A stretch of DNA of 64,000 nucleotides, taken from contig CM000208.1 of NCBI GenBank assembly GCA_000002445.1, positions 416,001 to 480,000 of the forward strand, in the 5' to 3' direction. The notes under the pieces are model-generated. The model saw only the letters and a program-made list of their open reading frames with translations, was not told where the DNA came from and searched no databases. Positions 1,524 through 58,300 of the stretch are shown here, piece by piece; position 1 is the first letter of the stretch, and the number at the start of each line of letters is the position of its first letter. This stretch comes from Trypanosoma brucei. Its lineage: Eukaryota. Made by a program: the position numbers and the translations under genes.

Positions 1524-4500
1524 TTCCCCACCCTTCAGTATTTGGGTGTAGTGCCCTTCGAGTGCAGAAACAAATTTCAGCACGTCCTCATCTGGAGCAC
1601 TGGCGTTTTTCTCACCATTACATTCCCTCGGTCTGCACGCCCTCAAATCCACCTGTTCTTCCTCAAGAGGAGGAACTGTAAAGAAGCCGAGTTCCCCCCA
1701 CACGTGCAGCGCCACATCCCGTACGCAATTTGTGTTCGACGGGAGCTGCGTAATTCCACGCCGGGCATTCCGAGTGAAGTGCTGCGATTCTAATTTGGTA
1801 CTGCGTTCAACTGCCGCCGTCACCAGTTGCTGCGACCAGAATTTTGCATCGCGCTCAAAGTCTGTCAACAGAGGTCCAAAATCCCCTGCTCGCCCAACAC
1901 CAGAAACGCCACTCATCTAGCGTAACTCAAAAAGAAAAAAATACAGGACTACGTACAATGAAGCATAAAGAAGTGAAAGCGGAAAAAGAAAAAAAGAGGT
2001 GAGAGAGTGCGCGACAATGTATAAGGTTCAGATTTTGCTATGGTGCGTAATATACTCCACAGAATACATACGCCTTTATGCGAGTTTGTGTGTACGAAAA
2101 GGGAGGAAGAAAAAAGCGTAAGAGGTTGTCATCTTAACTCCTCCCGCAGCGGTAAATCATAACACCACTCAAACCACACCAACACCTCCACTATTGCGTT
2201 ACCTACACTAAGCTGTACCATTCCTCCCATCTAGTCACACAACAACAACAACAACATAATAATAATAATAATAACCTAAACAACACAATAATATTCTCAT
2301 AATAATAACAATAGCATCTGTATTGTGGTCACAGTCATAGCGGTGACAATGACATTTTGGACAAGTGAGAGAAGAGAGGGAGAGAGCGGTAGAGTGGAAC
2401 AAACCCGTACGCGTAAAGGGGGGAAGAAAAGAAAAAAAAATGAAACAAAACCAAAAGAAAAAAAAATGAGAAATAAAAACAACAATGCTAATGACAACAA
2501 GCACAGCAAGGAAGGAAGTAAAGAGGTAAGAAGACAACAAAAGGAAGCGCAGCAAACCAAACAAATCTTCAATTTTAAAAAAAAAAATGAACCAACTTAA
2601 GGAGCCCCAATTCCTCCTATCACCCTCCACAAACACAATCTCATGTGTGATATAATGGACCAAAATGAAAAATTAAAAAAAGTTTTGCTGCAAGCCGACC
2701 TTAAGCGCTTCGTTTTGGGCCGGCACTGCAGAAGCTTTTCTCTCTGCATCCTTATCTCTTTCTTTTTTCTCTTTTAAAATACACTTTTCATTTATTTTTT
2801 TTTTCACTGCTTTCCTCCCCCTCTCTTTCCACCTATTTATTCACCCGTTTCTTAATTCATTTGCCTGCTTCATCTTCACCAGTTTCCCTCCCTCGCCTCC
2901 CTCCCACACTTCTCCACCAATGCCGCCCGGAGTTTTGCGATTCTGAGATGTGCACCTTTTTCTTTTTTTCTTCGTCGTTACATTTTTTTTTCTTTGTACC
3001 TTCTCATGCAAGGCACACACATTCCCTTTTTTCCGTCTAATTCCTCTTTCTTTCCACCTCTTTTAAGAACAAGAGCAAAAAAGAAAAATGCTGGTGTTCA
3101 TATGGGCATGCACAAATACATCTGAAATAATTTGAAGGAAGGAGGAAAATGAAAGGAAAAAAAAGGATGCAAATGCTAGTGTAGATAAATATATCTTTTA
3201 CGTATAAAAACAAATAAATGTAATTAGAGGAAGAAGAAAGAAAGAGACAAATAAAGGGAGAAAAAAGAAAAAGAAGAGCAACATAAGAAAAAAAAAGAGG
3301 AGGAAAGATAAATAACAACAGGGCAAGTAATACCCTCAAACTTAATATAAAATAATATAAAAGGGGAAAAAAGAAAAAGAAGAAACTGCTGATCATCATA
3401 TGCGCGACTCGCATGGAGGGAGGAAAGAGAAGAAGAGTTTACCCGCTTTGTTCAGTTCAGAAGTTAATTATCCTGCTCAACAACACGTAAAGGACGGCGT
3501 CACTCCTTCCAAATTCAATTCATAAATAAAAATAGTCATGCAATTCTCATGTCCCCATTGTTTGATTATATTATATTATATACATCGTTGCAGTTCTCAT
3601 AACCAATGGCTCATACCAAAATAATAATAATATTATTGTGATTAATTGTTGTTATTCTTAATGAAAATGGAAGGGGAACCAACCTTCAGTTATTCTTTAC
3701 CTCTCTTCGTATATATCTATATTTATATTCATTTATTCATTGGTCTCTTTCCTTATCACTGTATAAGCAAACACACACCGCAGGTTCGGAGACCGAGTAA
3801 AATGGCACGAGGGAAGAGAAAAGGGAATACAAGAACGCAAAAAAAAAGTGTAAGAACAAAAAACAAACAAAAGCACCAAAACAAACTCATCAATGGCACG
3901 ACGAGGAATAATGAAGAGAATGATGGTGAAATAAAAACAAAAAGGGGGCAAAAGGCGGCTCTATGAGAAGAACACACGCTGGAATCTCTTTGGTTTTGCG
4001 TCATTTATTCCCTTCTGTCACTCAATCCGTAAGTTTCATCCCCTTTCCTTCTTCTCTTTTTTTTTTTCTTCATGTTTCCTCACAACAAAATACGGTTACG
4101 GCAGTAGTACCAACCACAACTATGGTAACAGTGCCGCGGCTGATGACAATGATGGTAAATGTGAGTGTTGAAAAACAGGTTCGCAACTGTTGCATAATGA
4201 AAGGATCAGATGAGTGGAAAGAGGGGAATGCGTCCTCACGTGACAGCAGCGACACAGCAGGTAATGGAAATATAATGAAGAAGAAAAAAAAAGAAAAAGA
4301 AACAATAGCGGAAAAAACTAACAATGGAGCACAGGAAGGAAGGAAGGAAGAAAAATAAACTAAAACAAACAAATAAATATAACGGCGAAACAAAAAGAAA
4401 TGTACGACTGCTCTCTTCAGGCTCCTTTCACACACTTCTCCCCCCCCAAAAAAAAAAAATCGTTTTGTTTTGATGGTTTTATTTTCCTGTATTTATTCTC

Positions 4501-5253
4501 TTAAGCACAGACACACTTTACTACATTTCCCTGAACCCCTCACCGGCTATTACAACAATCATTGCAAAGTAACACATCATCATATTGTTTGCTCATAATA
4601 TTCCGTACGGAGTAAAAATATGAACACAACAAACGCGTGAAGCCGATCGCATTTAAGCTGTGACAATTTCTCCTATATTTCCCCCTTCATATGTATGTTC
4701 TTTTCCTTGTATACGACAACACAGACATATATTTGTGTTTGCTGTTTTTTTTTGCATTTTTACTCATGAGTTTTGTATTCAATTATCTCCCTTTTTATTT
4801 GCCGCGTCATGCGTTTTACCTCAACGGGGGAACACATAAGGGTTGTAAACATTGCGCCTCCGAAGCAGGCACATGTAAAGTGAAGCGAGGGGGTAATGGG
4901 GAAGAGAGGGCAGCGCACTCCATCACACGCGTATGAATGAATAAAATGATATGAGATGAGATAGAAAGGAAAGAAAATGGAAAATAAATGGAAAATAAAT
5001 CATACAAATACCTAAGTATTTGCTACTCGCTCATGCGTGCAAGTACGAAAACGAAAAAAATGAAAAAAAGTCAAACGACATCAAGCCGCATGCTCGCGCC
5101 ATGTCCGTACGGTTAGATGGGAAAATTTAATCGAAAGTTGCGTAAGCGAGTGAATTACGCGTGCTAACTAAAGGCGTGAGAGTGCGGTTTCATATTGTCT
5201 GACGTTAGCTCATTGTTCCCATGCACCCGTACTGGTTTAGTCCAATTTCTTTC

Positions 5254-5274
5254 GTGTGTGTGTGTGTGTGTGTG
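5254..5274. repeat. (GT)10 microsatellite
   Basis: gtgtgtgtgtgtgtgtgtgtg read directly. A nearby (AT)11 sits at 5546..5568. Confidence 0.9.
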
Positions 5275-6074
5275 CGCGCACGTCTGTGGCAAATAACAGA
5301 AAACGAACAAAGCTTTTTTAAAAGGGTAATGGAGGGGGGAAATGAAGAAAATAAATAAACAAATAAATAAATAAATGGAGTTAAAAAGTTAAACGCTTCC
5401 CCCCTAACCCCCAGCACCTCCCGCACCCTTCCCCTTCTCCTCTTTCACCTTAATTTTGGCACTTCAGCCCACTTGACTCAGAGTCACAGCGGAACCCAAG
5501 TCCAGCTGAAGGAAGTAGAAACACACAAACGTAAAGGCACATACGTATATATATATATATATATATATTAAGTATATAAATGTTGAGTATATGAACAGTG
5601 AGAAAATCATGTCAGATGTCAAAACCCGCATACCATCACTGCTGCTATTAATTCGGTCTCTACCCACCACACTCTTCACACCCATCACCACCACCTACAA
5701 CTCGAATCCCGCACAAAAAGACATATGAATGTATATATGTATACATATACATATGCGCGATATTAAAACACACGTGATGCCTTCAGTGTGGTACAATCTC
5801 TCAACAAGATTGAATGAAAATACCCTTACTTATTCATGTCACTTTTTACACGCCACTTTTTTACTCGTTTTTTTTATCGCCTCTTTATCTGCTTCTTCCT
5901 TTCCTCCACCATTCCTCAAACATATGCATCATTTCGCTACCCACAAACACAAATGGATACTACTACTTCTTTCGATCCTTTACTCTATAAACCCCTTTAC
6001 CATCATTTAAAATCCCCCATACGAGGAGCACCTTAACGGCACCAAAGATGTTACACATTGCTGTGGACCACCGC

Positions 6075-48339: not shown

Positions 48340-50228
48340 AAGAGATGGCACACACACACAACACCCTCCTTCTTACCTCATTTCGTATCCATAAAAGGGT
48401 GTGGCCAAGGCGTTGGTTGCTATTGTGCCTTTGGGGGCTGTCGACCTGGGGTGTAAATGGATTGTTGCGTGTTTACGAAGCGTGTTGTTTGACACGGGTC
48501 AAGAAGTGGGCATTGTCACTTCATACGCTCAATAGAGAAAACGAGCGCATATGTTCCGACAACGGGGTGTCGGATGTTTTCTTATTTTTTCATTGGTAAG
48601 TTGGGAGTTGGGAGGGGGGGGGGGTACCGACGGATACGAATTGGCGCTTTCCCTGCTTTTCGACCAGGACGATACACACTACTGGTTGTATTTGAGTGAC
48701 GCGGAAATGAATAATCTGTTGCAACGGACCGCCGCAAGCACATGCCTTGTCTGAATGTAAGTGTGCTCGGTTTGCCCCAGGTATTGCTTACGCCCCTCGA
48801 TTTGGGGGCGCGTTTTCGAGGTTTTCGTTGGACGGCTGCCGGAGGCAAAGCGCTATTGCGTTCCCTTTGTTATTGCCATTCGCTTTCTTGTGCGCGCTAT
48901 GCGGCATCAGATCCTGCGACCCGCCTCCCTGGCATACTGCTGATGTGCTGCCCGCAGTGGCACCAAACCCTCTTTTTCCCCGTTACTTGGTCTACTTTCC
49001 TTTTTGCTACTTCACATTTTGGGCCGTCGCGCGAGGGGCGCGACGGCCTCGTATGAACCGAAGAGTAGATTTCATATGCCAGGGCAAACCGCAGCTTCCT
49101 TTTCCTTGTGGCTGGAGCTCGTCGAAAGGAACGGAAGGTGAAGTACCCGGTTGCGGTTTCAGACGGCACTACCTTCATGCCTTTCGGCATGTGCAAGACG
49201 TCGCCGACAGGCGGTCCGCGCTCCGCGACACCATCACAGCGACGGGGAGGGCTCCCAGCGGGCACGGAAGCAGCCACTTTGGCGGGGACTCGATGGACGA
49301 CACAGTTGGCGTACCCAGCCGCAACTTCCTGAAGACTGATCCTTCAAATGGGGTTGCGCACGTGGAAATAAGCGTCGGTAGGATCTTTTTTGGCTCCAAG
49401 TCCGTTGCCGCTTCCCCCGATGGTCAAGCAGGCCCCGCTAACACTGAGGGAAGCGATGGTAGTGAAGCCCAGTTGGCACAACGCCGGGCCCCAGATCGGC
49501 TGGGTCGTCAACAGCGCCCAACACTTCTCCGCCTCTGCACCCTGTAGGGCAAACCTCCACAGCATTTCTCACTAAGAACAAAAACCCGAGAAAGGGGAGA
49601 AGAGGTAGCGCAACACAACCGGGCAGCCCAGGGGGTTGCACCAACCTTTGAAGTTCCCATTAAAAGTCCCCATTCCAGGCCCGAAAGGACAGGACCACCC
49701 CACGCAATCCCTTTAATCTCCCAACAAGAAGCGGTGACATCACTTTTTTTTAAAAGAAAAAACAATCTTAGAAAATTCAAAGGTAGATTCTCAATACACC
49801 TATAGCACGGGGTGGAAAGGGGCGGAAATCCATACACTACTAAAACGCCCCGAGAGGGTGAGCCATGCAGATGTGTAAATGCAAAATCATGCAGGCGGTC
49901 ACCTCACTCCACCCTTTCCTTCCCGCGTTCCTCGCGAATGTTTTGACACCCTTGGTATCGAGCGGTGTTACCACGATGATCAGATTCGTACTTGGGGTCT
50001 CACGTGGACAGTCCCCGTACTTTACCCTGCGTCACTAACCTCCCTGTGCCCCTGGCGGCCTCCGGCTTCGACCTGCGCCGTGTTTTTCTCACTGACGACC
50101 AACATTCCAGGGAGCCAACGGCAGAACTGCGTTTTAACTCCATCAGAAGAAACAACGGCCACGGACACTTCGCTTAAGTTGAGCCAGTGAAGACGGGTTA
50201 AGGTTTGTCGTCCCAGCGCCACAAGCTA

Positions 50229-51023
50229 CTATGCTCCGGTGTTCTGTTTACCGGATGCGACGGGCGGGAAAGCGTGGCCGGCACGTGTGTCCTCCAACTC
50301 TTCACTTCGACGTGCCTCTGTACATACTGCGTCGGGTTCCACAACGGGGAAAGCATGTGTTGTGTTCAGCTCCTTGGCTTGCTCCTCCTGCAGGGTGCTG
50401 CCAGCGGGCTTTTTCCGAAGTTCCACTGCGGGCAGGGTGCACAAAGGACGTGAACCCTCCTCATCGACCTGTCGAGATCCAACCCGGGCCCCATCAGATT
50501 CATTATCTGGCGAAGCACTCGGAGAGCGCGGGTCCGTCCTGGCTTCACTGAGTTTAGCACTTGCGGTGCGTTTGAATGGCTCCACGGCGGGAAAGGCTTG
50601 TGTGGGTCGCGGGTCACCTGGTGACGGCGCTCGCGGTTCTCCTTCACAGGTGTCGGGTTCTCCGGGAACCGCGCTGGACCCATTCCCCTTGGTCTTCTGG
50701 ACTTGCCGCTGTTGAGTGGCAAGGCGCGGGGCATCGGGGACGACTATAGGCAAAGCGCTCGTAAACGGCATTTCTTTTCTACCATCCTTCAGCTGAGGAT
50801 CGCTGGAGGGTTTAACGGGCTCCATGACGGGCAAAAGATGGGGGGCATGCGGTTTCTTATAATCAGACGACTGTCCTGCTTCGGCGGCTGGTGCTTCAAT
50901 TTCTCTTTGCAGTGGAGCGCCGATGTGGCATACTTCTTGCTGGCGTTCCCCATGATCAGGGATTTCTACGAGAGAACCTTCCGGGCCAGCGCTTTGTCCT
51001 CTTGGAAAATTTTCCGTTTTCAT
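50229..51023 (-). CDS. hypothetical Pro/Ala/Glu-rich protein carrying six diverged copies of an 'AFPxVEP'-type peptide motif; lone minus-strand ORF inside the gene-poor interval
   Basis: The minus-strand ORF (track 50229..51164, TTG start; first ATG 51023) contains HAPHLLPVMEP, ALPIVVPDAP, QAFPAVEP, TLPAVEL, HAFPVVEP and HAFPPVAS. The DNA copies (e.g. ggttccacaacggggaaagc, ggctccacggcgggaaaggc, gggctccatgacgggcaaaag, tccactgcgggcagggtgc) differ mostly at codon third positions. It is the only frame spanning all copies. It is antisense to the flanking plus-strand units, so the call is tentative. Confidence 0.35.
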   Translation of the reverse strand: MKTENFPRGQSAGPEGSLVEIPDHGERQQEVCHIGAPLQREIEAPAAEAGQSSDYKKPHAPHLLPVMEPVKPSSDPQLKDGRKEMPFTSALPIVVPDAPRLATQQRQVQKTKGNGSSAVPGEPDTCEGEPRAPSPGDPRPTQAFPAVEPFKRTASAKLSEARTDPRSPSASPDNESDGARVGSRQVDEEGSRPLCTLPAVELRKKPAGSTLQEEQAKELNTTHAFPVVEPDAVCTEARRSEELEDTRAGHAFPPVASGKQNTGA

Positions 51024-51338
51024 AGCGCCTTTACGTTGACCTACGGATTTCGGTGCCTTCAGCGCTTGAAGCGGAGCAGTCCACTCGTTTATAGCAAACC
51101 TTGCTTTGAAGGCCTTAATCGAGCAAAAGTCGCAAAGTTTAAAAAGTCTACCACCGTTAGTCAAAAGAAAGCATCATCTGAACCACACAAAGGAATAAGA
51201 GCACACCACTACCACAGAGATGCTCTAGTGGAGCACACGAACGCCCCCTTTCCATTCTCAACTGCAGCGAAAGAAAAGGGGAAAATAAAACTGTCAGCAC
51301 ATACGTACCTTTTTATTTGTGGTAGATGGAGCGCAGAA

Positions 51339-51361
51339 ATATATATATATATATATATATA
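51339..51361. repeat. (AT)11-12 microsatellite
   Basis: atatatatatatatatatatata read directly, immediately upstream (on the minus strand) of the motif-repeat ORF. Confidence 0.9.
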
Positions 51362-53052
51362 ATCAGTAGACCCGCGTTGTTCCCCGTTGCCATTTTTCCG
51401 CATCCGTATGTGAGACCTTTCTAACAAAACAACGGCATGATAATCTATGAGGCCAGGCCAGTACCGTTGAAAGGGGTCTACCACTACACCATGCCTTGCA
51501 ACTAGGATGCGCGATATCAGCCCCGGTGCCCTTTAAGAAAAGGCGTTCCGGTCTAATGTGAACAAGGCGAGCAAGTGGATGCATCAGCGCAATGGGAGAA
51601 GAGTGGTTGATAGGAAAGCTCCACCCCCTCCAACACAAAAAGGTATGCGGCACATGGCTCGTGAAATTACAAAAAAGATCCTCCACATACCTTAAGGGGG
51701 ATGCGTCAAGTAGTCGTCCCGAAGGGACGTGCACACAAACATTTTACTTCTAAACATCAGTGCTGAGGAAGCTATCGCATTCAATTACGGTTTGTAACCG
51801 TATTGGCCGATACAAATTACCTGTGGGGGCTCACAAAATTATCGGTGAGGTTCTTTGTGCCGGTGTTAAAGCCACGGGGACGACAAGAGCGTACCTTCAC
51901 TAACGGCTCTCTGCTACTGGGCCGTTCCAAGGCTCTGTGTCTTGGCGCGCCTAGATGCGAAGTCACTCACGGCACCAACATCCAGATTTTCTTTTCTTAA
52001 ACCCTCGACGGCTCTTGAAGCAGCTGGTACCAAATCTGTTTCTTTCACTCACCGCGCCACCTTCGCGGTCTCAGCCTCATACGCCAACATCCTTTTTGAA
52101 CCCTCATTGATTAGGTTTGGGTTTGCCTTAAAAAAATAAGCTCCCCACACAGCCACTTACATCAACTTCACCCCATCGCTTTTTTACGTCCTCGGTATTT
52201 TACATTGTGTCATTATAATTTTCATCGTGAATAGAAGTGATACACCGCATGTTATATGCACCGAGTTGCCTCCCAACCAATATACTCACTAACTTAACCC
52301 CGATAACCACCTTCCCATCCTGTTAGACCCCCCCACGCTCTTCGCAGGTGCTGCTCTTTTTTTTTTTTGCCAATACTAGGCACGCAAACAGCGGGTTGCC
52401 ACTGTCAAGCACCGGGAAATTGTTATTAACTTGAAGAATCTGTCGCCCACGTCACGGACTTGAACTATTAAATATCTAATCCACGCAAACGCGGAGAAGC
52501 AAACCAACAAAGAACCCCAAGGCCCTCTTTTTCTCCCAGTTGTGGTTTCGAACGTTGAAGAACTTCCATTTCGCTGTTACCTCTGGTTTACCTCTCCCTT
52601 TTTTTTTTCAACGAGATCACGCGCACGGGTAACCTTACCTTTGGTAATGTTGACAACAAACCCTCATCTTCCACACCGTGTTCATCCTACGTAGTGGAAA
52701 CTCGCTTCTAAAAAAAAAAAATGTAGTCTCCACAGAAATGTAAGAGCTGTTTATTACACTCATCGATGTCGAGGATGCCCCATGCTGAAGTTGCCCACGC
52801 AGTGCAGATGTTAAGTTTGAAAACGTATGCTCGCAACTCCGAATAACAGTGACGACAAACGGTGCCTGCGTCAGGAAGTTTGAACCATTCCCCTCACAGT
52901 CCACAATCCTCCTCACGTAATAAGATAGGTATAAAGTTTAGCGCCCACAGTTCAATCATAAATCGGCATGGAAATGTGCAATAAGGACATAGAGTCATTC
53001 AGAAACAACGGAACATAATCCCAGCATACGGCGGCTTCAGCCAGCCAGCCAT

Positions 53053-53053
<1 letters not shown>

Positions 53054-53088
<35 letters not shown>
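53054..53088. repeat. (CA)17 microsatellite
   Basis: cacacacacacacacacacacacacacacacacac read directly. Confidence 0.95.
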
Positions 53089-53093
<5 letters not shown>

Positions 53094-55438
53094 TCACTGC
53101 ATCGGTTAGTACACGCCAGGAGTAATATATATCGAGCAAGGATGCGTAAAGATAGCAGACTCGGAGGTGATGAATATACGGCGCACCGCTTGTGGGGTAC
53201 GCTTCTGTAAACAAATGAATGCCACCACGTACGCGACGGGCGCAACAGATATGATACACACAAGTTGAGGGAACTAAAACCCTTTTGAGGGGATACATAT
53301 CGTACAGTACCTTGCATGCGTGCGACTCTGTAGAGCCATCGGCTACGACTACTGACGTACCTGATCGCGTAGACTCATACTATCGACGATTCAAGAAACA
53401 ACTCCTCTTTCCATGACTCGTGTAAAAACAAAGTAGCCACAACTTTGTCCCTCCACCTGGTGGAAGGGATGCAGTTCACATACTGCGTACAACCCTAACC
53501 CTTTACTGATAGTTAATGCGTAGCAACAACCGCTGAGAAAAGCACAATAAGGAATTCATCACATCTCACACTGTCACATTCCATTGAATCTGAACCCCTC
53601 ATTGAGATTACACCCCTCCCCCATTTAGCACCCAACACATATCATCTAGCGCTAATGCGTCTGCTGTACTTCCAATAACAAGTAAAGCTCCACACATCTA
53701 GTGAAGTTGCATAGTGCAAACACCCTCCCATGCTCAGTGTAATCTTTCGTTAGGTCATCGCCCCTTTTGGTGTGCATACGAATCCTACCTAACTGCACCT
53801 TCACATCTTATTTTTCACCCCATCCTACTCAACCGTAGTACACAACGAACATACCCCTTGGTCATTTACCATATCTATTAATTATAAAAATAATTCAAAT
53901 AATTGTTGTCACTCTGCGTCCAGCACAGCTCATCCAGTTCGGATATGAAGGTGCAAACGAGTGGAATCGCGAAACCGCACGTGCTGACAGAGCAATAGGA
54001 ATTTCTCCACCCAGAGGCGTCATGAGCGTAAGCCTGGTGTATGATCCTTTCAGAGTGTATTTTGGAGCCGAGGAATTTATTTGAGCGATATCAATAATCA
54101 CTTCCCCCAGCCAGCCGGTTCAAATTACATCAACACTCAACTAATATACGTATAAACACGGATATCTCACGGATTATTAGTTAAGTATGTCGCAGTTCCA
54201 TTGCAGTTGGAGCATGAGGAAAATTAAGTGAGTATCCAATAATGGACCAAATCATACACAACATGAGCACCCTACATCCACTCCCTCTGAGCCTAACCTT
54301 ACAACCACATAGCAACCCGCCGCCCGGGGGGGGGCATCAGCAGAGAAAGTCTGCGATGTTCATATATATATATATATTTCCATTTTCGCCCTCTTTTAGG
54401 CGAAACTTTGTAATACAAACATCGTTCAACACGAGGATGACGAAAATGTTATTGAGTTATACTCAACAATTTATTGCGGCTCAAACACGGCTTGAGCGAA
54501 CATATCAGCCGTTAGATTGCGATAGAACCTGCATGCGCTAACTTCTCACCAAGCAGACAAAGAAAATGCGGAAGCACAACGACAGGTTTACAAGGGGTTG
54601 GATATATAATACAAAATATCGGATGATATCACCGCTGCCTTAGACGACCTCTATCCACAGTCCCGCCCAGTAAACATTAATAACTTTACACACACGCCAC
54701 ATTGTCGACGATACCATTAAAAAGGTAACGGAAAGACTACCGAAGGACAACACACTTCGAGAGATCCCCGCCTTTCAAAGGAAAGAATGCAATATATTCT
54801 CCCGTCACAGCGTCAACTTGCACAGCGCAATAAAACCTTACACAACAACCGCTTCTAAACTCATCTATAATCACTCTTCATTTACATTCGATCATTAGCG
54901 CAACACCAGCGATGGCAGTGACAACAAAACAAAAAAAATACTCAAATTTAAACATGAACCATTCAATATCGGAGGACAAGTTACAAATTGCAGATACAGA
55001 TTTTTAAAGTTAAAACATACATAAGTACTATTCAATGAGGTTTCAAATTATCTAAATCATCAATACATTGGAAATGACTACGCAGCGACACGTATTCATT
55101 CAAAAACAGCATCCGAAACTCACCTAAAAAAACAAAAGAAAAAAGAAAAAATAGGTAGCACCGCCGCTCCACCTACAAGTAAATCAGCTACTGAAGGTGG
55201 GAAAGTCCCTCCAAATGTGAGTTTAACCGCCACTGTGAGGTAATAAAGCAACGCCAGAAAACACACTTTATTCACTTTCCCTGATATGTAACAAAAAAGG
55301 GCCCTAGAAATAATAAACAGCTGAGAACCTCCGAGCAACCTACCAACGAGCCGATTGCTGTGCAAAGCTAGTGGAATTACGCTTCTCTGCATTTTCCAGC
55401 AACGATGTTTCAGACCTAACATATCCCACTTCGAAGGT

Positions 55439-56290
55439 ACCACCGCACAAAAAACATACCGTATCCGATGCGGCACAGCCGCCTGCACACGAAAAATAGA
55501 AGTACAAACAAACTTTTGGTCACCACACGTCTGCTCCTTTGGAAGCAGCAGCGCTCAGGGTACACCAAGCTACTTCACAACACCCGTTCATACAAGTAGC
55601 AGAACGAAATAAATGAGTAGCACCACGGTGCAGGACGTGAAGCAACGCAACCTAACCCACACAACGAAGTTTTGTCGCGGCAAGCGTCCCATCACGAGAA
55701 TAATAAAAGAGGAGTCCAATTCACCAGCAACTGGACGGACGCCCCATACCATGCCCAGCTCTTCCTTCCACCGCCCCACTCGTTGTGGTAACGACCCAAA
55801 CGATGGAGCCCTTTCCGACGGGGAAGTTCCTGCGGCACAACAGCCACACCCCGTAGAGCTCGCCAAGCTCCACACACACCAACACAGGGGTCCTGAAACC
55901 ACGAGATCTAACGGGGAGGGGCACAGCTCCCAACCTTCTTTCCTGAGTGGGAATAAAGCCTTAGTTAGCCTATCCAAAACAGGCGGTCAATCAGATTAAT
56001 GTTCGCGTGGGCCCCAAGCAAATCATGCCAAAAAAACTATGTGACCTCCGAATTGTTTACTTCGGAGCCCCCCCCCCCACCTCCGTTTTGTTTACCACCA
56101 GCTCTGACCAAATTCCTCCTCCCAAACGAGTGGCACCCCCTACTTCGGCACACCTGAGCGGTCCGCGACTGGTGTATTCCCCAAACCAGGCAAGGCTTCG
56201 GGGCCCGCTCAACCACGCGGTAGGGCACAGAGTCGTCGGGAGGGAGAAGTCATTCATGCTCGCCTTACAGAAGCACGTATTGGTCCTTTT
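55439..56290. repeat. left arm of large inverted repeat (852 bp)
   Basis: Reverse complement of 57448..58300. Checked by eye at both arm boundaries, and by mirrored, near-identical ORF translations on opposite strands. The 128-aa ORF 55613..55999(+) equals 57740..58126(-) exactly. 55588..55977(-) equals 57762..58151(+) except one residue (R/K). 'TTAQKTYRIRCGTAACTRKIEVQTNFWSPHVCSF...' is shared by 55355..55612(+) and 58127..58552(-). Includes a C11 run at ~56068-56078. Confidence 0.9.
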
Positions 56291-57447
56291 GTTCACCTAT
56301 TTATGAGATGAGGCAGCTGTGGAGTTTGGAACGCCAGAACCTGGAGGAGGTGATTCGCAGCGTGGGAAAAGAGCTGCCGTTTTTTTTTTTTTTACCGTCT
56401 GTGTGAGACCGCCACCCTAACCACTGTTGACGCGATCTGACGTTGTGCCGGTGTTAAAGCACTGCCTTTTGGAGGCTATGCGGTGTGCTTTCCGACGGCC
56501 GAGTTGAGCGTCGACTGCAGTCACCATCAGCAGAGCATTTAAGTGAAAATGAACCGAAGGGACGGGAAGGTAGTTACTACCGTTTGTTTCTGGCGGTGGA
56601 ACTCGTACACACCACTGCCTTTAGATGCCACACACACACACAGGAACGTTAAGATAACCGCCAGAAATAGTCTACAATTAAAGCCTTTCGAGCCATTCCC
56701 TCATCGCACACACGCTTCGTTTTTCTTAGTGTAGGAGCCTCCCTCTGCCCCCTTGATTTCTTCTGTTTGAAAACATGCACCGGGCATCCTTCTTGCTGAA
56801 AACCACTTGGCTTCAATACAAATCAAATTCCTATACGGAGTCACAACCGAAGTTAGGACCCTCATGCAAGAGAAGGACCACACGTGTCCCTCTGCTAGTT
56901 CACTCCCGCGTGATAAACAGAAGATGCCCAAGAGGAACCGGACCCGCACGAATTGCAACATCGTCCGAACTAAGCCCTTTTCGCGGCAACCTACTATTGA
57001 GAAGTGCTTTGTAGCTGTTCGCTCCGGTTCGATCGCATTACCTCAGTTCTCAAAAGAACTTCAGCCCTGCACGATGATTTCGCTGTCGAGTGCCCCCAAC
57101 ACGTTCGTGGACAATGACGGCCTGGTGGAATAAGTACATTTTTTTTTGACTTTTCGTCACCTAGAGGGGGAAAGGATAGTATTTCAATGTTGAATCGACG
57201 GGCCCTCGCAGGTATTCCAAATCCCCTATTTTGCACTGCGGTGGCTAACCGTCCTTCATTATGGCAACTGCAGAGCAGTTCTCAAAGGCACCGTCTTCCA
57301 CGCCCATACTGGTTTGAATGAGGAGGCCTGTGGCGAACCGCACCATCTTTTATCGTTCGTTTTTACTCTTCAATATGCGTCCAACACAGGAAGTTAAGTA
57401 ACATCATCGTATTGCCATGCCCCCCAAAATAATAATAAGGGGTTATT

Positions 57448-58300
57448 AAAAGGACCAATACGTGCTTCTGTAAGGCGAGCATGAATGACTTCCCCCTCCC
57501 GACGACTCTGTGCCCTACCGCGTGGTTGAGCGGGCCCCGAAGCCTTGCCTGGTTTGGGGAATACACCAGTCGCGGACCGCTCAGGTGTGCCGAAGTAGGG
57601 GGTGCCACTCGTTTGGGAGGAGGAATTTGGTCAGAGCTGGTGGTAAACAAAACGGAGGTGGGGGGGGGGGGCTCCGAAGTAAACAATTCGGAGGTCGCAT
57701 AGTTTTTTTGGCATGATTTGCTTGGGGCCCACGCGAACATTAATCTGATTGACCGCCTGTTTTGGATAGACTAACTAAGGCTTTATTCCCACTCAGGAAA
57801 GAAGGTTGGGAGCTGTGCCCCTCCCCGTTAGATCTCGTGGTTTCAGGACCCCTGTGTTGGTGTGTGTGGAGCTTGGCGAGCTCTACGGGGTGTGGCTGTT
57901 GTGCCGCAGGAACTTCCCCGTCGGAAAGGGCTCCATCGTTTGGGTCGTTACCACAACGAGTGGGGCGATGGAAGGAAGAGCTGGGCATGGTATGGGGCGT
58001 CCGTCCAGTTGCTGGTGAATTGGACTCCTCTTTTATTATTCTCGTGATGGGACGCTTGCCGCGACAAAACTTCGTTGTGTGGGTTAAGTTGCGTTGCTTC
58101 ACGTCCTGCACCGTGGTGCTACTCATTTATTTCGTTCTGCTACTTGTATGAACGGGTGTTGTGAGGTAGCTTGGTGTACCTTGAGCGCTGCTGCTTCCAA
58201 AGGAGCAGACGTGTGGTGACCAAAAGTTTGTTTGTACTTCTATTTTTCGTGTGCAGGCGGCTGTGCCGCATCGGATACGGTATGTTTTTTGTGCGGTGGT
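57448..58300. repeat. right arm of large inverted repeat (853 bp), ~98% identical to the left arm in reverse complement
   Basis: See left arm. The only differences seen are a few substitutions and a G12 vs C11 homopolymer length difference (57660-57671). Spacer 56291..57447 = 1157 bp. Confidence 0.9.

What the first reader, a model, noticed from the sequence alone, without database searches (positions are those of the whole stretch)
50229..51023. Antisense ORF encoding six diverged copies of an AFPxVEP-like short linear motif
On the minus strand one frame is open across six copies of [HQ]AFP[VAP]V[EA]P / LPxVE[PL]. The copies are spaced irregularly (~90-240 nt). Nucleotide differences fall largely on codon third positions, so the peptide is conserved while the DNA drifts. 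That is the signature of selection on a protein motif rather than a recent DNA tandem repeat. The surrounding sequence is Pro/Ala/Glu-rich and disorder-like, like scaffold proteins that present repeated SLiMs to a partner domain. I do not recognise the motif. Caveat: the paired plus-strand frame has coinciding wobble positions (STxGKAC translations), so periodicity alone cannot assign the strand. The minus frame is preferred only because it alone spans all copies and is longer.
Basis: seen in the sequence. Interest (0 to 1): 0.5.

Follow-up and report, generated by a model that had tools for sequence, protein, structure and literature searches.

The report
Bloodstream-stage trypanosome protein with repeated motif
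The ORF is a real, already annotated Trypanosoma brucei gene (Tb927.10.1770) whose disordered, bloodstream-stage-enriched protein is made of about eight worn-down 27-residue repeats that each keep a short [F/L]-P-x-V-(E) motif, also preserved in T. congolense, and whose binding partner and function are unknown.

Summary
The minus-strand ORF 50229..51023 carries six copies of [FL]Px[VM][EAV][PLS], far above chance, and the copies differ almost only at synonymous sites.

The ORF is not an unannotated antisense ORF. It is Tb927.10.1770 (Tb10.70.6130, Q38C65) on T. brucei TREU927 chromosome 10, and it is the last gene of a short minus-strand transcription unit.

Published genome-wide data settle the strand question:
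- A spliced-leader acceptor on the minus strand at window 51113 gives a 90-nt 5'UTR.
- Strand-specific ribosome footprints show translation efficiency 0.32-0.47.
- Three peptides (15% coverage) were identified.
- mRNA, footprints and protein are all about 5-9-fold higher in bloodstream forms than in procyclic forms.

New here:
1. The 'T. brucei spp.-specific' label is wrong. T. congolense has a syntenic ortholog (37% identity), and four motif copies are clearly kept, a fifth is kept in weakened form and copy 3 is lost. No ortholog is detectable in T. vivax, T. cruzi, T. melophagium or T. rangeli.
2. The spacing is quasi-periodic, not irregular: about 27 residues, which implies about eight degenerate tandem units.
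3. The protein is predicted disordered, with no Pfam or PDB relative.
4. The motif fits no known linear-motif class that I tested.

Most likely it is a multivalent linear-motif ligand for an unknown partner. This is moderately interesting and not surprising.

The parts
50229..51023 (-). CDS of Tb927.10.1770 (Tb10.70.6130, XP_822433.1, Q38C65): 264 aa plus TAG stop, 28.2 kDa, pI 5.4.
   Evidence: Exact sequence match to the TREU927 protein. The coordinates chr10 467907->467113 equal the window coordinates plus 416,884. Codon-usage score is +0.11 bits/codon, and the other five frames are negative. Ribosome footprints and peptides are reported.
51024..51113 (-). 5' UTR, 90 nt, with no upstream ATG.
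   Evidence: Jensen 2014 Additional file 6 gives the major spliced-leader site at 467997 (window 51113), a 90-nt UTR, 80 reads and 74.8% of SL reads. The sequence was read.
51114..51115 (-). AG trans-splice acceptor dinucleotide.
   Evidence: On the minus strand the AG lies immediately 5' of the mapped spliced-leader addition site.
51116..51200 (-). Pyrimidine-rich stretches upstream of the acceptor (tcttattcctttgt, ctttctttt, cttttgctc). These are the presumed polypyrimidine signal for trans-splicing.
   Evidence: Read directly from the sequence. The function is inferred from general knowledge of trypanosomatid trans-splicing.
50232..50858 (-). Repeat region, residues about 56-264: about eight degenerate tandem units of about 27 residues.
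   Evidence: BLOSUM autocorrelation peaks at lags 27/28, 53/54 and 80/81 in T. brucei (z 2.5-3.1), and at 27, 54 and 80 in T. congolense (z 3.0-4.8, family-wise P=0.0005).
50817..50837 (-). Motif copy 1, LLPVMEP (residues 63-69).
   Evidence: T. congolense has ILPVVEA at the aligned position.
50736..50756 (-). Motif copy 2, ALPIVVP (residues 90-96).
   Evidence: T. congolense has ALPIVGL, and SALPIV..DAP is invariant.
50655..50672 (-). Degenerate copy, AVPGEP (residues 118-123), at the expected 27-residue register.
   Evidence: Units printed in register. This is my reading, and the evidence is weak.
50577..50597 (-). Motif copy 3, AFPAVEP (residues 143-149).
   Evidence: The copy is lost in T. 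congolense, which has RLNFSEQ there.
50496..50516 (-). Degenerate copy, ASPDNES (residues 170-176), at the expected register.
   Evidence: Units printed in register. This is my reading, and the evidence is weak.
50418..50438 (-). Motif copy 4, TLPAVEL (residues 196-202). This is the best-conserved island.
   Evidence: RPLCTLPAVE.RK.P is identical in T. brucei and T. congolense.
50334..50354 (-). Motif copy 5, AFPVVEP (residues 224-230).
   Evidence: T. congolense has AFPVPET.
50253..50273 (-). Motif copy 6, AFPPVAS (residues 251-257).
   Evidence: T. congolense has VFPLVGS, and GH.FP.V.S.KQN is conserved.
49548..50228 (.). Convergent transcription-stop region between the plus-strand unit (last ORF Tb927.10.1760, 49053..49547) and the target. 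It contains the target's 3' UTR.
   Evidence: Both .1760 and .1770 are flagged 'stop -1 converge' in PMC3332058 Table S1. Logan contigs carrying the gene end at about 49711-49951.
51363..51584 (-). Tb927.10.1780, an annotated 73-aa ORF and the upstream member of the same short minus-strand unit. It is probably non-coding.
   Evidence: Its coordinates are 468468->468247. TE is 0.06-0.09 in bloodstream forms, the 5' UTR is 2960 nt and many uORFs are listed. It is flagged 'start +1 diverge'.
55439..58300 (.). Divergent strand-switch region from which the short minus-strand unit and the plus-strand unit (Trm140 onwards) start. It contains an 860-nt inverted repeat with a 1143-nt spacer.
   Evidence: Inverted repeat found. 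GC skew is negative over 52-56 kb, as in the other minus-strand unit.

Best explanation
The ORF is the genuine protein-coding gene Tb927.10.1770. It is transcribed on the minus strand as the last gene of a two-gene RNA polymerase II unit. That unit starts at a divergent strand-switch region (about 55-58 kb) and ends at a convergent stop (about 49.5-50.2 kb).

The mRNA is trans-spliced at the AG at 51115-51114 and translated from the first AUG (51023). The product is a 28-kDa acidic protein rich in Pro, Ala and Glu and predicted to be disordered. It is about 5-9-fold more abundant in bloodstream forms than in procyclic forms.

The protein arose by tandem amplification of a unit of about 27 residues (81 nt) in the common ancestor of the T. 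brucei and T. congolense lineages. The units have since diverged beyond DNA recognition, and selection has kept only a short core, [H/R/x]-A/x-[F/L]-P-x-V-(E)-(P).

Inferred mechanism: the protein is a flexible, multivalent ligand that presents five to six copies of this linear motif to a folded domain of an as yet unknown partner. It would then cluster, recruit or sequester that partner, mainly in the mammalian-stage parasite.

Shown: gene identity, strand, splicing, translation, protein existence, stage bias, restricted phylogenetic range, motif conservation, periodicity. Predicted: disorder. Inferred: partner binding and multivalency as the function.
For: - Identity: exact match to Tb10.70.6130/XP_822433.1. 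The coordinates equal Tb927.10.1770 at a constant offset that also fits four neighbouring genes.
- Strand and splicing: SL site 467997 = window 51113 on the minus strand, 80 reads, 74.8% of SL reads. An AG lies immediately upstream and the 90-nt UTR has no uATG.
- Translation: strand-specific footprints 21/142/192 (PCF/slBF/cBF) and TE 0.32/0.34/0.47, against 0.06-0.09 in bloodstream forms for the neighbouring dubious ORF .1780.1760 has very few footprint reads. The annotated start codon is confirmed.
- Protein: 3 peptides, 15.2% coverage, PCF/BSF ratio 0.196.
- mRNA: 42 rpkm in bloodstream forms (median 30.6) and BSF/PCF 6.6.
- Codon usage: +0.11 bits/codon, within the range of bona fide genes.
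- Ortholog: T. congolense TCIL3000_10_1500, E=1.4e-18, 37% identity, two accessions from the CID-gene ortholog.
- Motif selection: 22/36 against 64/228 identical residues, p=1.4e-4; synonymous differences between copies 2/0/29 by codon position. Enrichment is seen in both species.
- Periodicity of about 27 residues in both species.
- Disorder: mean pLDDT 47, pTM 0.11, no secondary structure, with slight pLDDT bumps at copies 1 and 4. There is no Pfam family and no PDB relative.
Against: - No partner, localisation or phenotype is known. The stored TrypTag supplements do not list the gene, RIT-seq has no value for it, and no paper in the library names it in its main text.
- Within the T. brucei group the CDS is no more conserved than the flanking intergenic DNA (8.8 against 7-10 substitutions per kb), and 4 of its 7 substitutions are non-synonymous. 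Overall constraint is therefore weak and the gene may be dispensable.
- One copy (copy 3) is lost in T. congolense and copy 5 is altered there.
- The disorder call rests on a 5-sequence alignment.
- The motif was defined after seeing it. The motif-agnostic test is only P=0.013.
Confidence: 0.55

Rival explanations
1. The motif copies are only the slowest-decaying remnants of an ancient 27-residue tandem repeat. The protein works, if at all, through bulk physicochemical properties such as an acidic disordered spacer or a condensate component. Alternatively it folds as a repeat structure only in a complex. On this reading no specific motif-recognising partner exists.
For: Quasi-periodic architecture with degenerate units. 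Weak overall constraint within T. brucei. One copy is lost and one altered in T. congolense. No match to known motif classes.
Against: At 37% overall identity the cores are conserved about twice as well as the remainder (p=1.4e-4), while synonymous sites between copies are essentially randomised. Neutral relics would not be expected to keep the same F/L-P-x-V residues in five to six paralogous units and in two species.
Confidence: 0.25
2. The motif is a divergent version of an already known linear-motif class. Candidates are the clathrin box L-phi-x-phi-[DE], which is attractive because endocytosis and clathrin are up-regulated about 5-fold in bloodstream forms, the Atg8-interacting [WFY]xx[LIV], and PP2A-B56 LxxIxE.
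For: The pattern L/F-x-x-V-E shares the first, fourth and fifth positions with the clathrin box. Three T. brucei copies fit [WFY]xx[LIV]. Copy 1 fits L..[ILV].E in both species. In the SILAC table the protein's stage ratio sits next to clathrin heavy chain, which is only a coincidence of ranking.
Against: The regex tests failed. No copy fits the clathrin box, because Pro occupies the second position. The aromatic position is Leu in the best-conserved copies and only one T. congolense copy fits the LIR core. The B56 pattern fits copy 1 only. The motif definitions were recalled from memory, not taken from ELM.
Confidence: 0.1
3. The transcript is a non-coding or antisense RNA at a strand-switch region, and the ORF is fortuitous.
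For: It lies at a convergent stop, next to two annotated ORFs that do look spurious.1760 and .1780, with TE 0.06-0.09 or tiny counts. The gene is lineage-restricted.
Against: Ribosome footprints give normal TE and confirm the start codon. Three peptides were identified. Codon usage is gene-like. The ORF and its motifs are kept in T. congolense.
Confidence: 0.02
4. The plus-strand frame (ORF 50239..50715, with STxGKAC repeats) is the translated one.
For: It is open for 158 codons, and its wobble positions coincide with those of the minus frame.
Against: Its codon-usage score is negative, -0.06. It does not span all the copies. The SL site, strand-specific mRNA and footprints, the peptides and the T. 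congolense ortholog all belong to the minus frame. GC skew over the upstream part of this short unit (52-56 kb) has the minus-strand sign; at 50-52 kb it is near zero.
Confidence: 0.01

Closest known systems
Tb927.10.1770 / Tb10.70.6130 (UniProt Q38C65), 'hypothetical protein' / 'T. brucei spp.-specific protein'
   Same: It is this gene, with an identical sequence. Expression data already exist in genome-wide studies (PMC3332058, PMC4210626, PMC3344917).
   Different: The database label says it is specific to T. brucei spp. Here a syntenic T. congolense ortholog is shown. The repeated motif, the 27-residue periodicity and the predicted disorder are not mentioned in any paper I could search.
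Disordered endocytic and adaptor proteins carrying arrays of short linear motifs (for example epsin, AP180/CALM and Eps15 with DPW, NPF or clathrin-box arrays; trypanosome clathrin-associated proteins)
   Same: A low-complexity, disordered, acidic protein. It has several copies of a 4-6-residue motif separated by variable linkers. The motifs are conserved while the linkers drift.
   Different: There is no folded membrane-binding domain (ENTH/ANTH/EH). The motif fits none of the known endocytic motif patterns. No localisation or interaction data exist. This is an analogy of architecture only, not membership.
Ancient degenerate tandem-repeat proteins of trypanosomatids
   Same: A quasi-regular repeat unit of about 27 residues inferred from autocorrelation.
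   Different: Typical trypanosomatid repeat antigens have near-identical DNA repeats. Here no DNA-level repeat survives and only a core of about 5 residues is kept.

Membership tests
Expressed trypanosomatid protein-coding gene | Spliced-leader acceptor (AG preceded by pyrimidine tracts) upstream on the same strand, with mapped SL reads. | tested here: met
   The AG at 51115-51114 and the pyrimidine tracts were read. The mapped site (80 reads, 74.8%) comes from PMC4210626 Additional file 6.
Expressed trypanosomatid protein-coding gene | Ribosome footprints on the ORF at a normal translation efficiency. | tested here: met
   Literature data read here: TE 0.32-0.47 and FDR 3e-14 to 3e-17 for bloodstream-form enrichment.
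Expressed trypanosomatid protein-coding gene | Peptides identified by mass spectrometry. | tested here: met
   3 peptides and 15.2% coverage in PMC3344917 Table S1.
Expressed trypanosomatid protein-coding gene | Codon usage like that of neighbouring genes, and best in the claimed frame. | tested here: met
   +0.111 bits/codon against 0.093-0.207 for 16 genes of the window. The other five frames are negative.
'T. brucei spp.-specific' orphan genes | No homolog outside T. brucei subspecies. | tested here: not met
   T. congolense TCIL3000_10_1500, E=1.4e-18, in a syntenic position. No homolog was found in T. vivax, T. cruzi, T. melophagium or T. rangeli syntenic DNA, or in 1.8-5.8 billion proteins.
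Intrinsically disordered proteins | No stable predicted fold, with a disorder-promoting composition. | tested here: met
   Mean pLDDT 47.1, pTM 0.11, no secondary structure. 72% disorder-promoting residues and GRAVY -0.88. This is prediction only, and the alignment is shallow.
Tandem-repeat proteins | Significant sequence self-similarity at a fixed period. | tested here: met
   Lags 27, 54 and 80 rank top in both species. T. congolense family-wise P=0.0005. In T. brucei the individual z values are 2.5-3.1 (family-wise 0.12), but all six top lags are multiples of about 27.
Clathrin-box ligands | L[IVLMF].[IVLMF][DE] | tested here: not met
   No match in either ortholog, because Pro occupies position 2.
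Atg8/LC3-interacting (LIR/AIM) motifs | [WFY]xx[LIV] core conserved across copies and orthologs. | tested here: not met
   3 of 6 T. brucei copies and 1 T. congolense copy fit. The best-conserved copies have Leu at the aromatic position, and Pro at X1 is atypical.
HP1 chromoshadow PxVxL / MYND PxLxP / EVH1 FPx-phi-P / PP2A-B56 LxxIxE / calcineurin LxVP / SIAH PxAxVxP | The respective consensus present in the repeated copies in both species. | tested here: not met
   Each pattern matches at most one copy per species, and the matches are mostly not orthologous. Only B56 fits copy 1 in both species. The patterns were written from memory rather than taken from ELM.
Any Pfam family or solved structure | A significant profile match. 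| tested here: not met
   Pfam: 0 families at E<=0.01. PDB profile search: 0 hits at E<=10.
Multivalent linear-motif scaffolds or ligands (functional class) | Direct, motif-dependent binding to a partner domain. | not testable with these tools
   This needs pull-downs, proximity labelling or complex structure prediction against the T. brucei proteome.

The most novel reading that the evidence does not exclude
[H/R]-A-[F/L]-P-x-V-E-P is a previously undescribed linear-motif class confined to the T. brucei/T. congolense clade. Tb927.10.1770 uses five to six copies of it to cluster or titrate a specific partner in bloodstream forms. On this reading it is a lineage-specific regulator of a mammalian-stage process, which could be endocytosis or flagellar-pocket traffic given the clathrin-box-like L-x-x-phi-E outline. 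A further possibility is that its short two-gene transcription unit is itself stage-regulated from a strand-switch region that carries an invertible segment.
Probability: 0.25. Interest if true: 0.55.

Novelty: new member of a known kind. Interest (0 to 1): 0.3.

Why it matters
The gene is one of hundreds of T. brucei 'hypothetical, species-specific' proteins with no functional handle. This work gives it a testable handle:
- It is restricted to the T. brucei and T. congolense lineages.
- It is made as protein mainly in the mammalian stage.
- It consists of a periodic array of one conserved short motif.

Motif peptides can be used directly as bait, and mutating three residues per copy gives a clean loss-of-function allele. 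If a partner is found, that would define a parasite-specific interaction module in the disease-relevant stage. If none is found, the gene remains an example of a young, weakly constrained disordered protein. On present evidence it is neither surprising nor tied to a long-standing question.

Tried and rejected
- Homology beyond T. congolense. An exhaustive phmmer search of 1.84 billion representatives and a profile search of 5.8 billion proteins found only the T. brucei cluster and T. congolense.
- Unannotated orthologs. HMM, phmmer and motif-density scans of all six frames of the syntenic 10 kb in T. vivax, T. cruzi (two strains), T. melophagium and T. rangeli gave nothing with E<1 and no ORF with 3 or more motif copies.
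- T. congolense DNA. None could be obtained because its proteins have no contig on record, so Tb-Tc dN/dS and the plus-frame test on the ortholog were not possible.
- Pfam, PDB sequence profile, Rfam and tRNA: nothing.
- DNA-level repeats: none. A recent tandem repeat is therefore rejected.
- Within-T. brucei polymorphism test: only 7 substitutions, so it has no power.
- Known linear-motif regexes: none fits.
- Literature. No hits for the old gene ID, the UniProt accession, the T. congolense ID or motif strings. The stored TrypTag supplements do not contain the gene. Two other papers have no stored supplements.
- Spliced leader in the three short Logan contigs: not found. Their transcript-like size (1.3-1.5 kb, roughly 51260/51200 to 49950/49710) is suggestive only, because the run type is unknown.
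- A fold search was not run because the model is uniformly low-confidence.
Full report
**1. What is in the sequence**

On the minus strand an ORF is open from 51164 (TTG), or from the first ATG at 51023, down to a TAG at 50229-50231. Its translation holds six copies of a short motif:

| Copy | Peptide | Window coordinates |
|---|---|---|
| 1 | LLPVMEP | 50817-50837 |
| 2 | ALPIVVP | 50736-50756 |
| 3 | AFPAVEP | 50577-50597 |
| 4 | TLPAVEL | 50418-50438 |
| 5 | AFPVVEP | 50334-50354 |
| 6 | AFPPVAS | 50253-50273 |

- The pattern [FL]P.[VM][EAV][PLS] occurs six times against 0.013 expected after shuffling the protein (0 of 20000 shuffles).
- That pattern was written after seeing the copies, so I also ran a motif-agnostic test. 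The most frequent exact pattern with four fixed residues is AFP.V, three times, P=0.013. The minimal core [FL]P.[VIM] occurs 6 times against 0.22 expected.
- There is no repeat at the DNA level. Tandem Repeats Finder reports only an (AT)n microsatellite and a 10-nt duplication outside the ORF, and the repeat finder gives only 12-14-nt pairs that are probably chance.
- Where two copies encode the same amino acid, their codons differ 2, 0 and 29 times at positions 1, 2 and 3 (51 codon pairs).
- The composition is Pro/Ala/Glu-rich (12.9, 11.0 and 10.2%), pI 5.4, GRAVY -0.88.
- The plus-strand partner ORF with STTGKAC/STAGKAC exists at 50239..50715.

**2. A correction to the observation: the spacing is periodic**

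The motif starts are at residues 64, 91, 144, 197, 225 and 252, giving gaps of 27, 53, 53, 28 and 27 residues (81-159 nt). BLOSUM62 autocorrelation results:

| Protein | Strongest lags | z | Family-wise P |
|---|---|---|---|
| T. brucei | 53, 81, 27, 28, 80, 54 | 2.5-3.1 | 0.12 for a single lag |
| T. congolense ortholog | 80, 54, 27 | 4.8, 3.6, 3.0 | 0.0005 |

- At the two 'missing' registers there are degenerate look-alikes, AVPGEP at residues 118-123 and ASPDNES at 170-176.
- With the six cores masked, lags 54 and 80 still rank high in T. brucei.
- Residues about 56-264 are therefore best read as about eight strongly diverged tandem units of about 27 residues, in which the motif is the part that has been kept.
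- The repeat is ancient rather than absent.

**3. What the locus is**

- The 264-aa product is identical to T. brucei brucei TREU927 Tb10.70.6130 / XP_822433.1 / Q38C65. Sources call it 'hypothetical protein' or 'T. brucei spp.-specific protein'. Copies 99% identical are annotated in T. b. gambiense and two T. equiperdum assemblies.
- In the ribosome-profiling supplement of Jensen et al. 2014 (PMC4210626), Tb927.10.1770 is at Tb927_10_v5 467907->467113 on the minus strand. That is 795 nt and equals window 51023->50229 at an offset of 416,884. The same offset places Tb927.10.1750.1760.1780 and .1800 on ORFs of the window.
- Independent anchors agree.1710 is a translesion polymerase.1720 is Hel66 and .1800 is TbTrm140. 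The published RT-PCR primers for .1760 encode the ends of the plus-strand ORF that stops at 49547.

**4. Transcription context**

| Window region | Content | Source |
|---|---|---|
| 6-34.5 kb | Minus-strand genes | |
| 36.4-49.5 kb | Plus-strand genes | |
| 50.2-51.0 kb | The target, minus strand | |
| 51.2-59.1 kb | No ORF longer than 141 aa | |
| from 59.1 kb | Plus-strand genes | |

- In Table S1 of PMC3332058, which used the histone-mark maps of Siegel et al. 2009.1760 and .1770 are both 'stop -1, converge' and .1780 is 'start +1, diverge'.
- The target is therefore the last gene of a two-gene minus-strand unit. That unit begins in a divergent strand-switch region near 55-58 kb and ends head-to-head with the long plus-strand unit.
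- GC skew agrees. It is negative over 52-56 kb, as in the large minus-strand unit, and positive over the plus-strand units.
- 'Antisense' therefore describes only the ORF's orientation relative to its neighbours. No sense gene overlaps it.

**5. Which strand is translated**

1. *Trans-splicing.* The major spliced-leader site is 467997, which is window 51113 on the minus strand, with 80 reads making up 74.8% of the gene's SL reads. The sequence shows AG at 51115-51114 directly upstream, pyrimidine tracts further upstream, and exactly 90 nt without any ATG before the annotated start.
2. *Translation.* Median normalised values:

   | Stage | Footprints | mRNA | TE |
   |---|---|---|---|
   | Procyclic | 21 | 66 | 0.32 |
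   | Slender bloodstream | 142 | 417 | 0.34 |
   | Cultured bloodstream | 192 | 408 | 0.47 |

   FDR is 3.6e-14 and 3.0e-17 for the bloodstream increase. The start codon is confirmed in their Additional file 7. The authors state that the libraries were highly strand-specific and that they removed ORFs whose reads lay on the wrong strand. The neighbouring ORF .1780 has TE 0.06-0.09 in bloodstream forms, and .1760 has very few footprint reads.
3. *Protein.* Urbaniak et al. 2012 identified the 264-aa, 28.189-kDa product with 3 peptides and 15.2% coverage. The heavy(procyclic)/light(bloodstream) ratio is 0.196, so the protein is about 5-fold higher in bloodstream forms.
4. *mRNA.* 42 rpkm in bloodstream forms against a median of 30.6, a half-life of about 15 min, and a bloodstream/procyclic ratio of 6.6.
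5. *Codon usage (my own test).* The minus frame scores +0.111 bits/codon, within the 0.093-0.207 range of 16 genes of the window. All five other frames are negative, including the plus-strand partner frame.

**6. Phylogenetic range**

- The word-indexed search found only the T. brucei cluster.
- The exhaustive HMMER search of 1.84 billion representatives added one protein: T. congolense IL3000 TCIL3000_10_1500 (G0UVH6, CCC93391.1), 253 aa, E=1.4e-18, 37% identity.
- Its GenBank accession is two away from that of the T. congolense ortholog of the CID-domain gene (CCC93389.1). This mirrors .1740 - .1750 - .1770 in T. brucei, so the ortholog is very probably syntenic.
- A profile of both species found nothing more among 5.8 billion proteins.
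- I fetched the syntenic region around the CID-gene ortholog in T. vivax, T. cruzi (two strains), T. melophagium and T. rangeli. The upstream gene order is conserved and the plus-strand unit ends at the same place. However, no six-frame ORF in the following 3-10 kb held for each locus (least in T. rangeli) resembles the target (best E>1), and none has three or more motif copies.
- The gene is therefore confined, as far as can be detected, to the T. brucei and T. congolense lineages. The 'T. brucei spp.-specific' label is too narrow.

**7. Selection on the motif**

In the Tb-Tc alignment the motif copies fare as follows:

| Copy | T. brucei | T. congolense | Status |
|---|---|---|---|
| 1 | LLPVMEP | ILPVVEA | kept |
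| 2 | SALPIVVPDAP | SALPIVGLDAP | kept |
| 3 | QAFPAVEP | RLNFSEQP | lost |
| 4 | RPLCTLPAVELRKKP | RPLCTLPAVENRKRP | kept |
| 5 | AFPVVEP | AFPVPET | kept, weaker |
| 6 | GHAFPPVASGKQN | GHVFPLVGSNKQN | kept |

- Identity is 22/36 within the six hexapeptides against 64/228 elsewhere (Fisher p=1.4e-4). It is 13/18 at the [FL]-P-x-V positions against 73/246 elsewhere (p=4e-4).
- Within the T. brucei group there are only seven substitutions in the CDS, four of them non-synonymous and none in a motif. The density, 8.8 per kb, is like that of the flanking intergenic DNA. This test has no power, but it warns that overall constraint is weak.

**8. Structure and family**

- AlphaFold2 on the five-sequence alignment gives mean pLDDT 47, pTM 0.11 and no secondary structure apart from one four-residue helix. 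The highest local confidence is at copies 1 and 4.
- There is no Pfam family and no PDB relative even at E<=10.
- I tested the copies against linear-motif patterns written from memory: clathrin box, HP1 PxVxL, MYND PxLxP, EVH1, PP2A-B56 LxxIxE, calcineurin LxVP, SH3 classes I/II, LIR, NPF, DP[FW], TRAF2 and SIAH.
- None fits the copies consistently in both species. The nearest are the LIR core (three Tb copies, one Tc copy) and B56 (copy 1 only). The clathrin box fails because of the Pro at position 2.

**9. Most likely mechanism**

- *Shown:* a trans-spliced, translated, bloodstream-enriched 28-kDa protein, restricted to two salivarian lineages, built from degenerate 27-residue units with a conserved core. 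Its lack of stable structure is a prediction, not a demonstration.
- *Inferred:* it acts as a flexible multivalent ligand. Each unit offers an [F/L]-P-x-V-(E) peg, often preceded by H/R-A and followed by a basic or acidic residue, to a folded domain of an unknown partner. One molecule can then engage several partner molecules or several sites.
- I put about 0.97 on the coding and expression statement and about 0.5 on the motif being a true partner-binding element.
- The main rival (about 0.25) is that the cores are merely the slowest-decaying parts of an old repeat, in a weakly constrained protein without a specific partner.
- The plus-strand and non-coding readings are refuted.

**10. Novelty and score**

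- The gene and its expression are already in public databases and supplements.
- Not described in any text I could search: the motif array, its periodicity, the T. congolense ortholog and the absence from T. vivax and from stercorarian trypanosomes.
- It is a new member of a known kind, namely lineage-restricted disordered proteins with repeated linear motifs.
- It offers a clean experimental handle but does not challenge current understanding. Interest is 0.3.

Noticed in passing
window 55439-56297 and 57441-58300 (arms), 56298-57440 (spacer): A near-perfect inverted repeat of about 860 nt (98-99% complementary) flanks a 1143-nt spacer. It lies inside the divergent strand-switch region that starts both the short minus-strand unit and the plus-strand unit beginning with TbTrm140. 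Each arm carries a 128-aa ORF, and these ORFs are annotated as genes in T. b. gambiense.
   Followed up: partly
window 56298-57440 versus L001 3556-4701 and L012 3583-4726: The 1143-nt spacer is in the opposite orientation in T. b. gambiense DAL972 and T. b. equiperdum IVM-t1 relative to TREU927, while the unique flanks are collinear (98.7-99.0% identity). This is either a real flip by recombination between the arms at a transcription start region or an assembly ambiguity.
   Followed up: partly
window 51363-51584 (Tb927.10.1780) and upstream to about 54544: The annotated 73-aa gene Tb927.10.1780 looks non-coding. TE is 0.06-0.09 in bloodstream forms, one mapped SL site gives a 2960-nt 5' UTR, and dozens of uORF rows are listed. 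Even so, its RNA is up about 4-7-fold in bloodstream forms, like the target. Both members of this two-gene unit are therefore stage-regulated in the same direction.
   Followed up: partly
window 49053-49547 (Tb927.10.1760): The last annotated ORF of the long plus-strand unit is doubtful as a gene. It has 1.7 rpkm, tiny footprint counts and a codon-usage score of about 0 for the enclosing ORF. RT-PCR failed in the source paper. Its RNA rises 20-fold on CTR9 depletion, as reported for several ORFs at convergent stops.
   Followed up: partly
L005 10001-12064 (+) and 18307-20370 (-): In one T. vivax contig the CID-domain gene and the following 235-aa gene are present twice in inverted orientation, which gives a palindromic arrangement at the end of the unit. 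The second T. vivax contig (L006) instead has reverse-transcriptase-like ORFs there.
   Followed up: no
window 51339-51361 and about 53000-53300: There is an (AT)11.5 microsatellite just upstream of the target's splice signals. There is also a (TG/CA)n tract, seen as CVCVCV... in ORF translations near 53.1 kb.
   Followed up: no
L002-L004 (Logan runs ERR7929161, ERR7929157, ERR7929156): Three independent short assemblies of 1.3-1.5 kb cover only window positions about 51260/51200 to 49950/49710, that is the target ORF plus short flanks. One begins 2 nt after an upstream pyrimidine-tract AG at 51263-51262. They look transcript-derived, but the run type is unknown and no spliced-leader sequence is attached.
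   Followed up: partly
window 2001-6000: A low-GC stretch (0.37-0.39, against about 0.5 elsewhere) with strongly positive AT skew lies at the start of the window.
   Followed up: no
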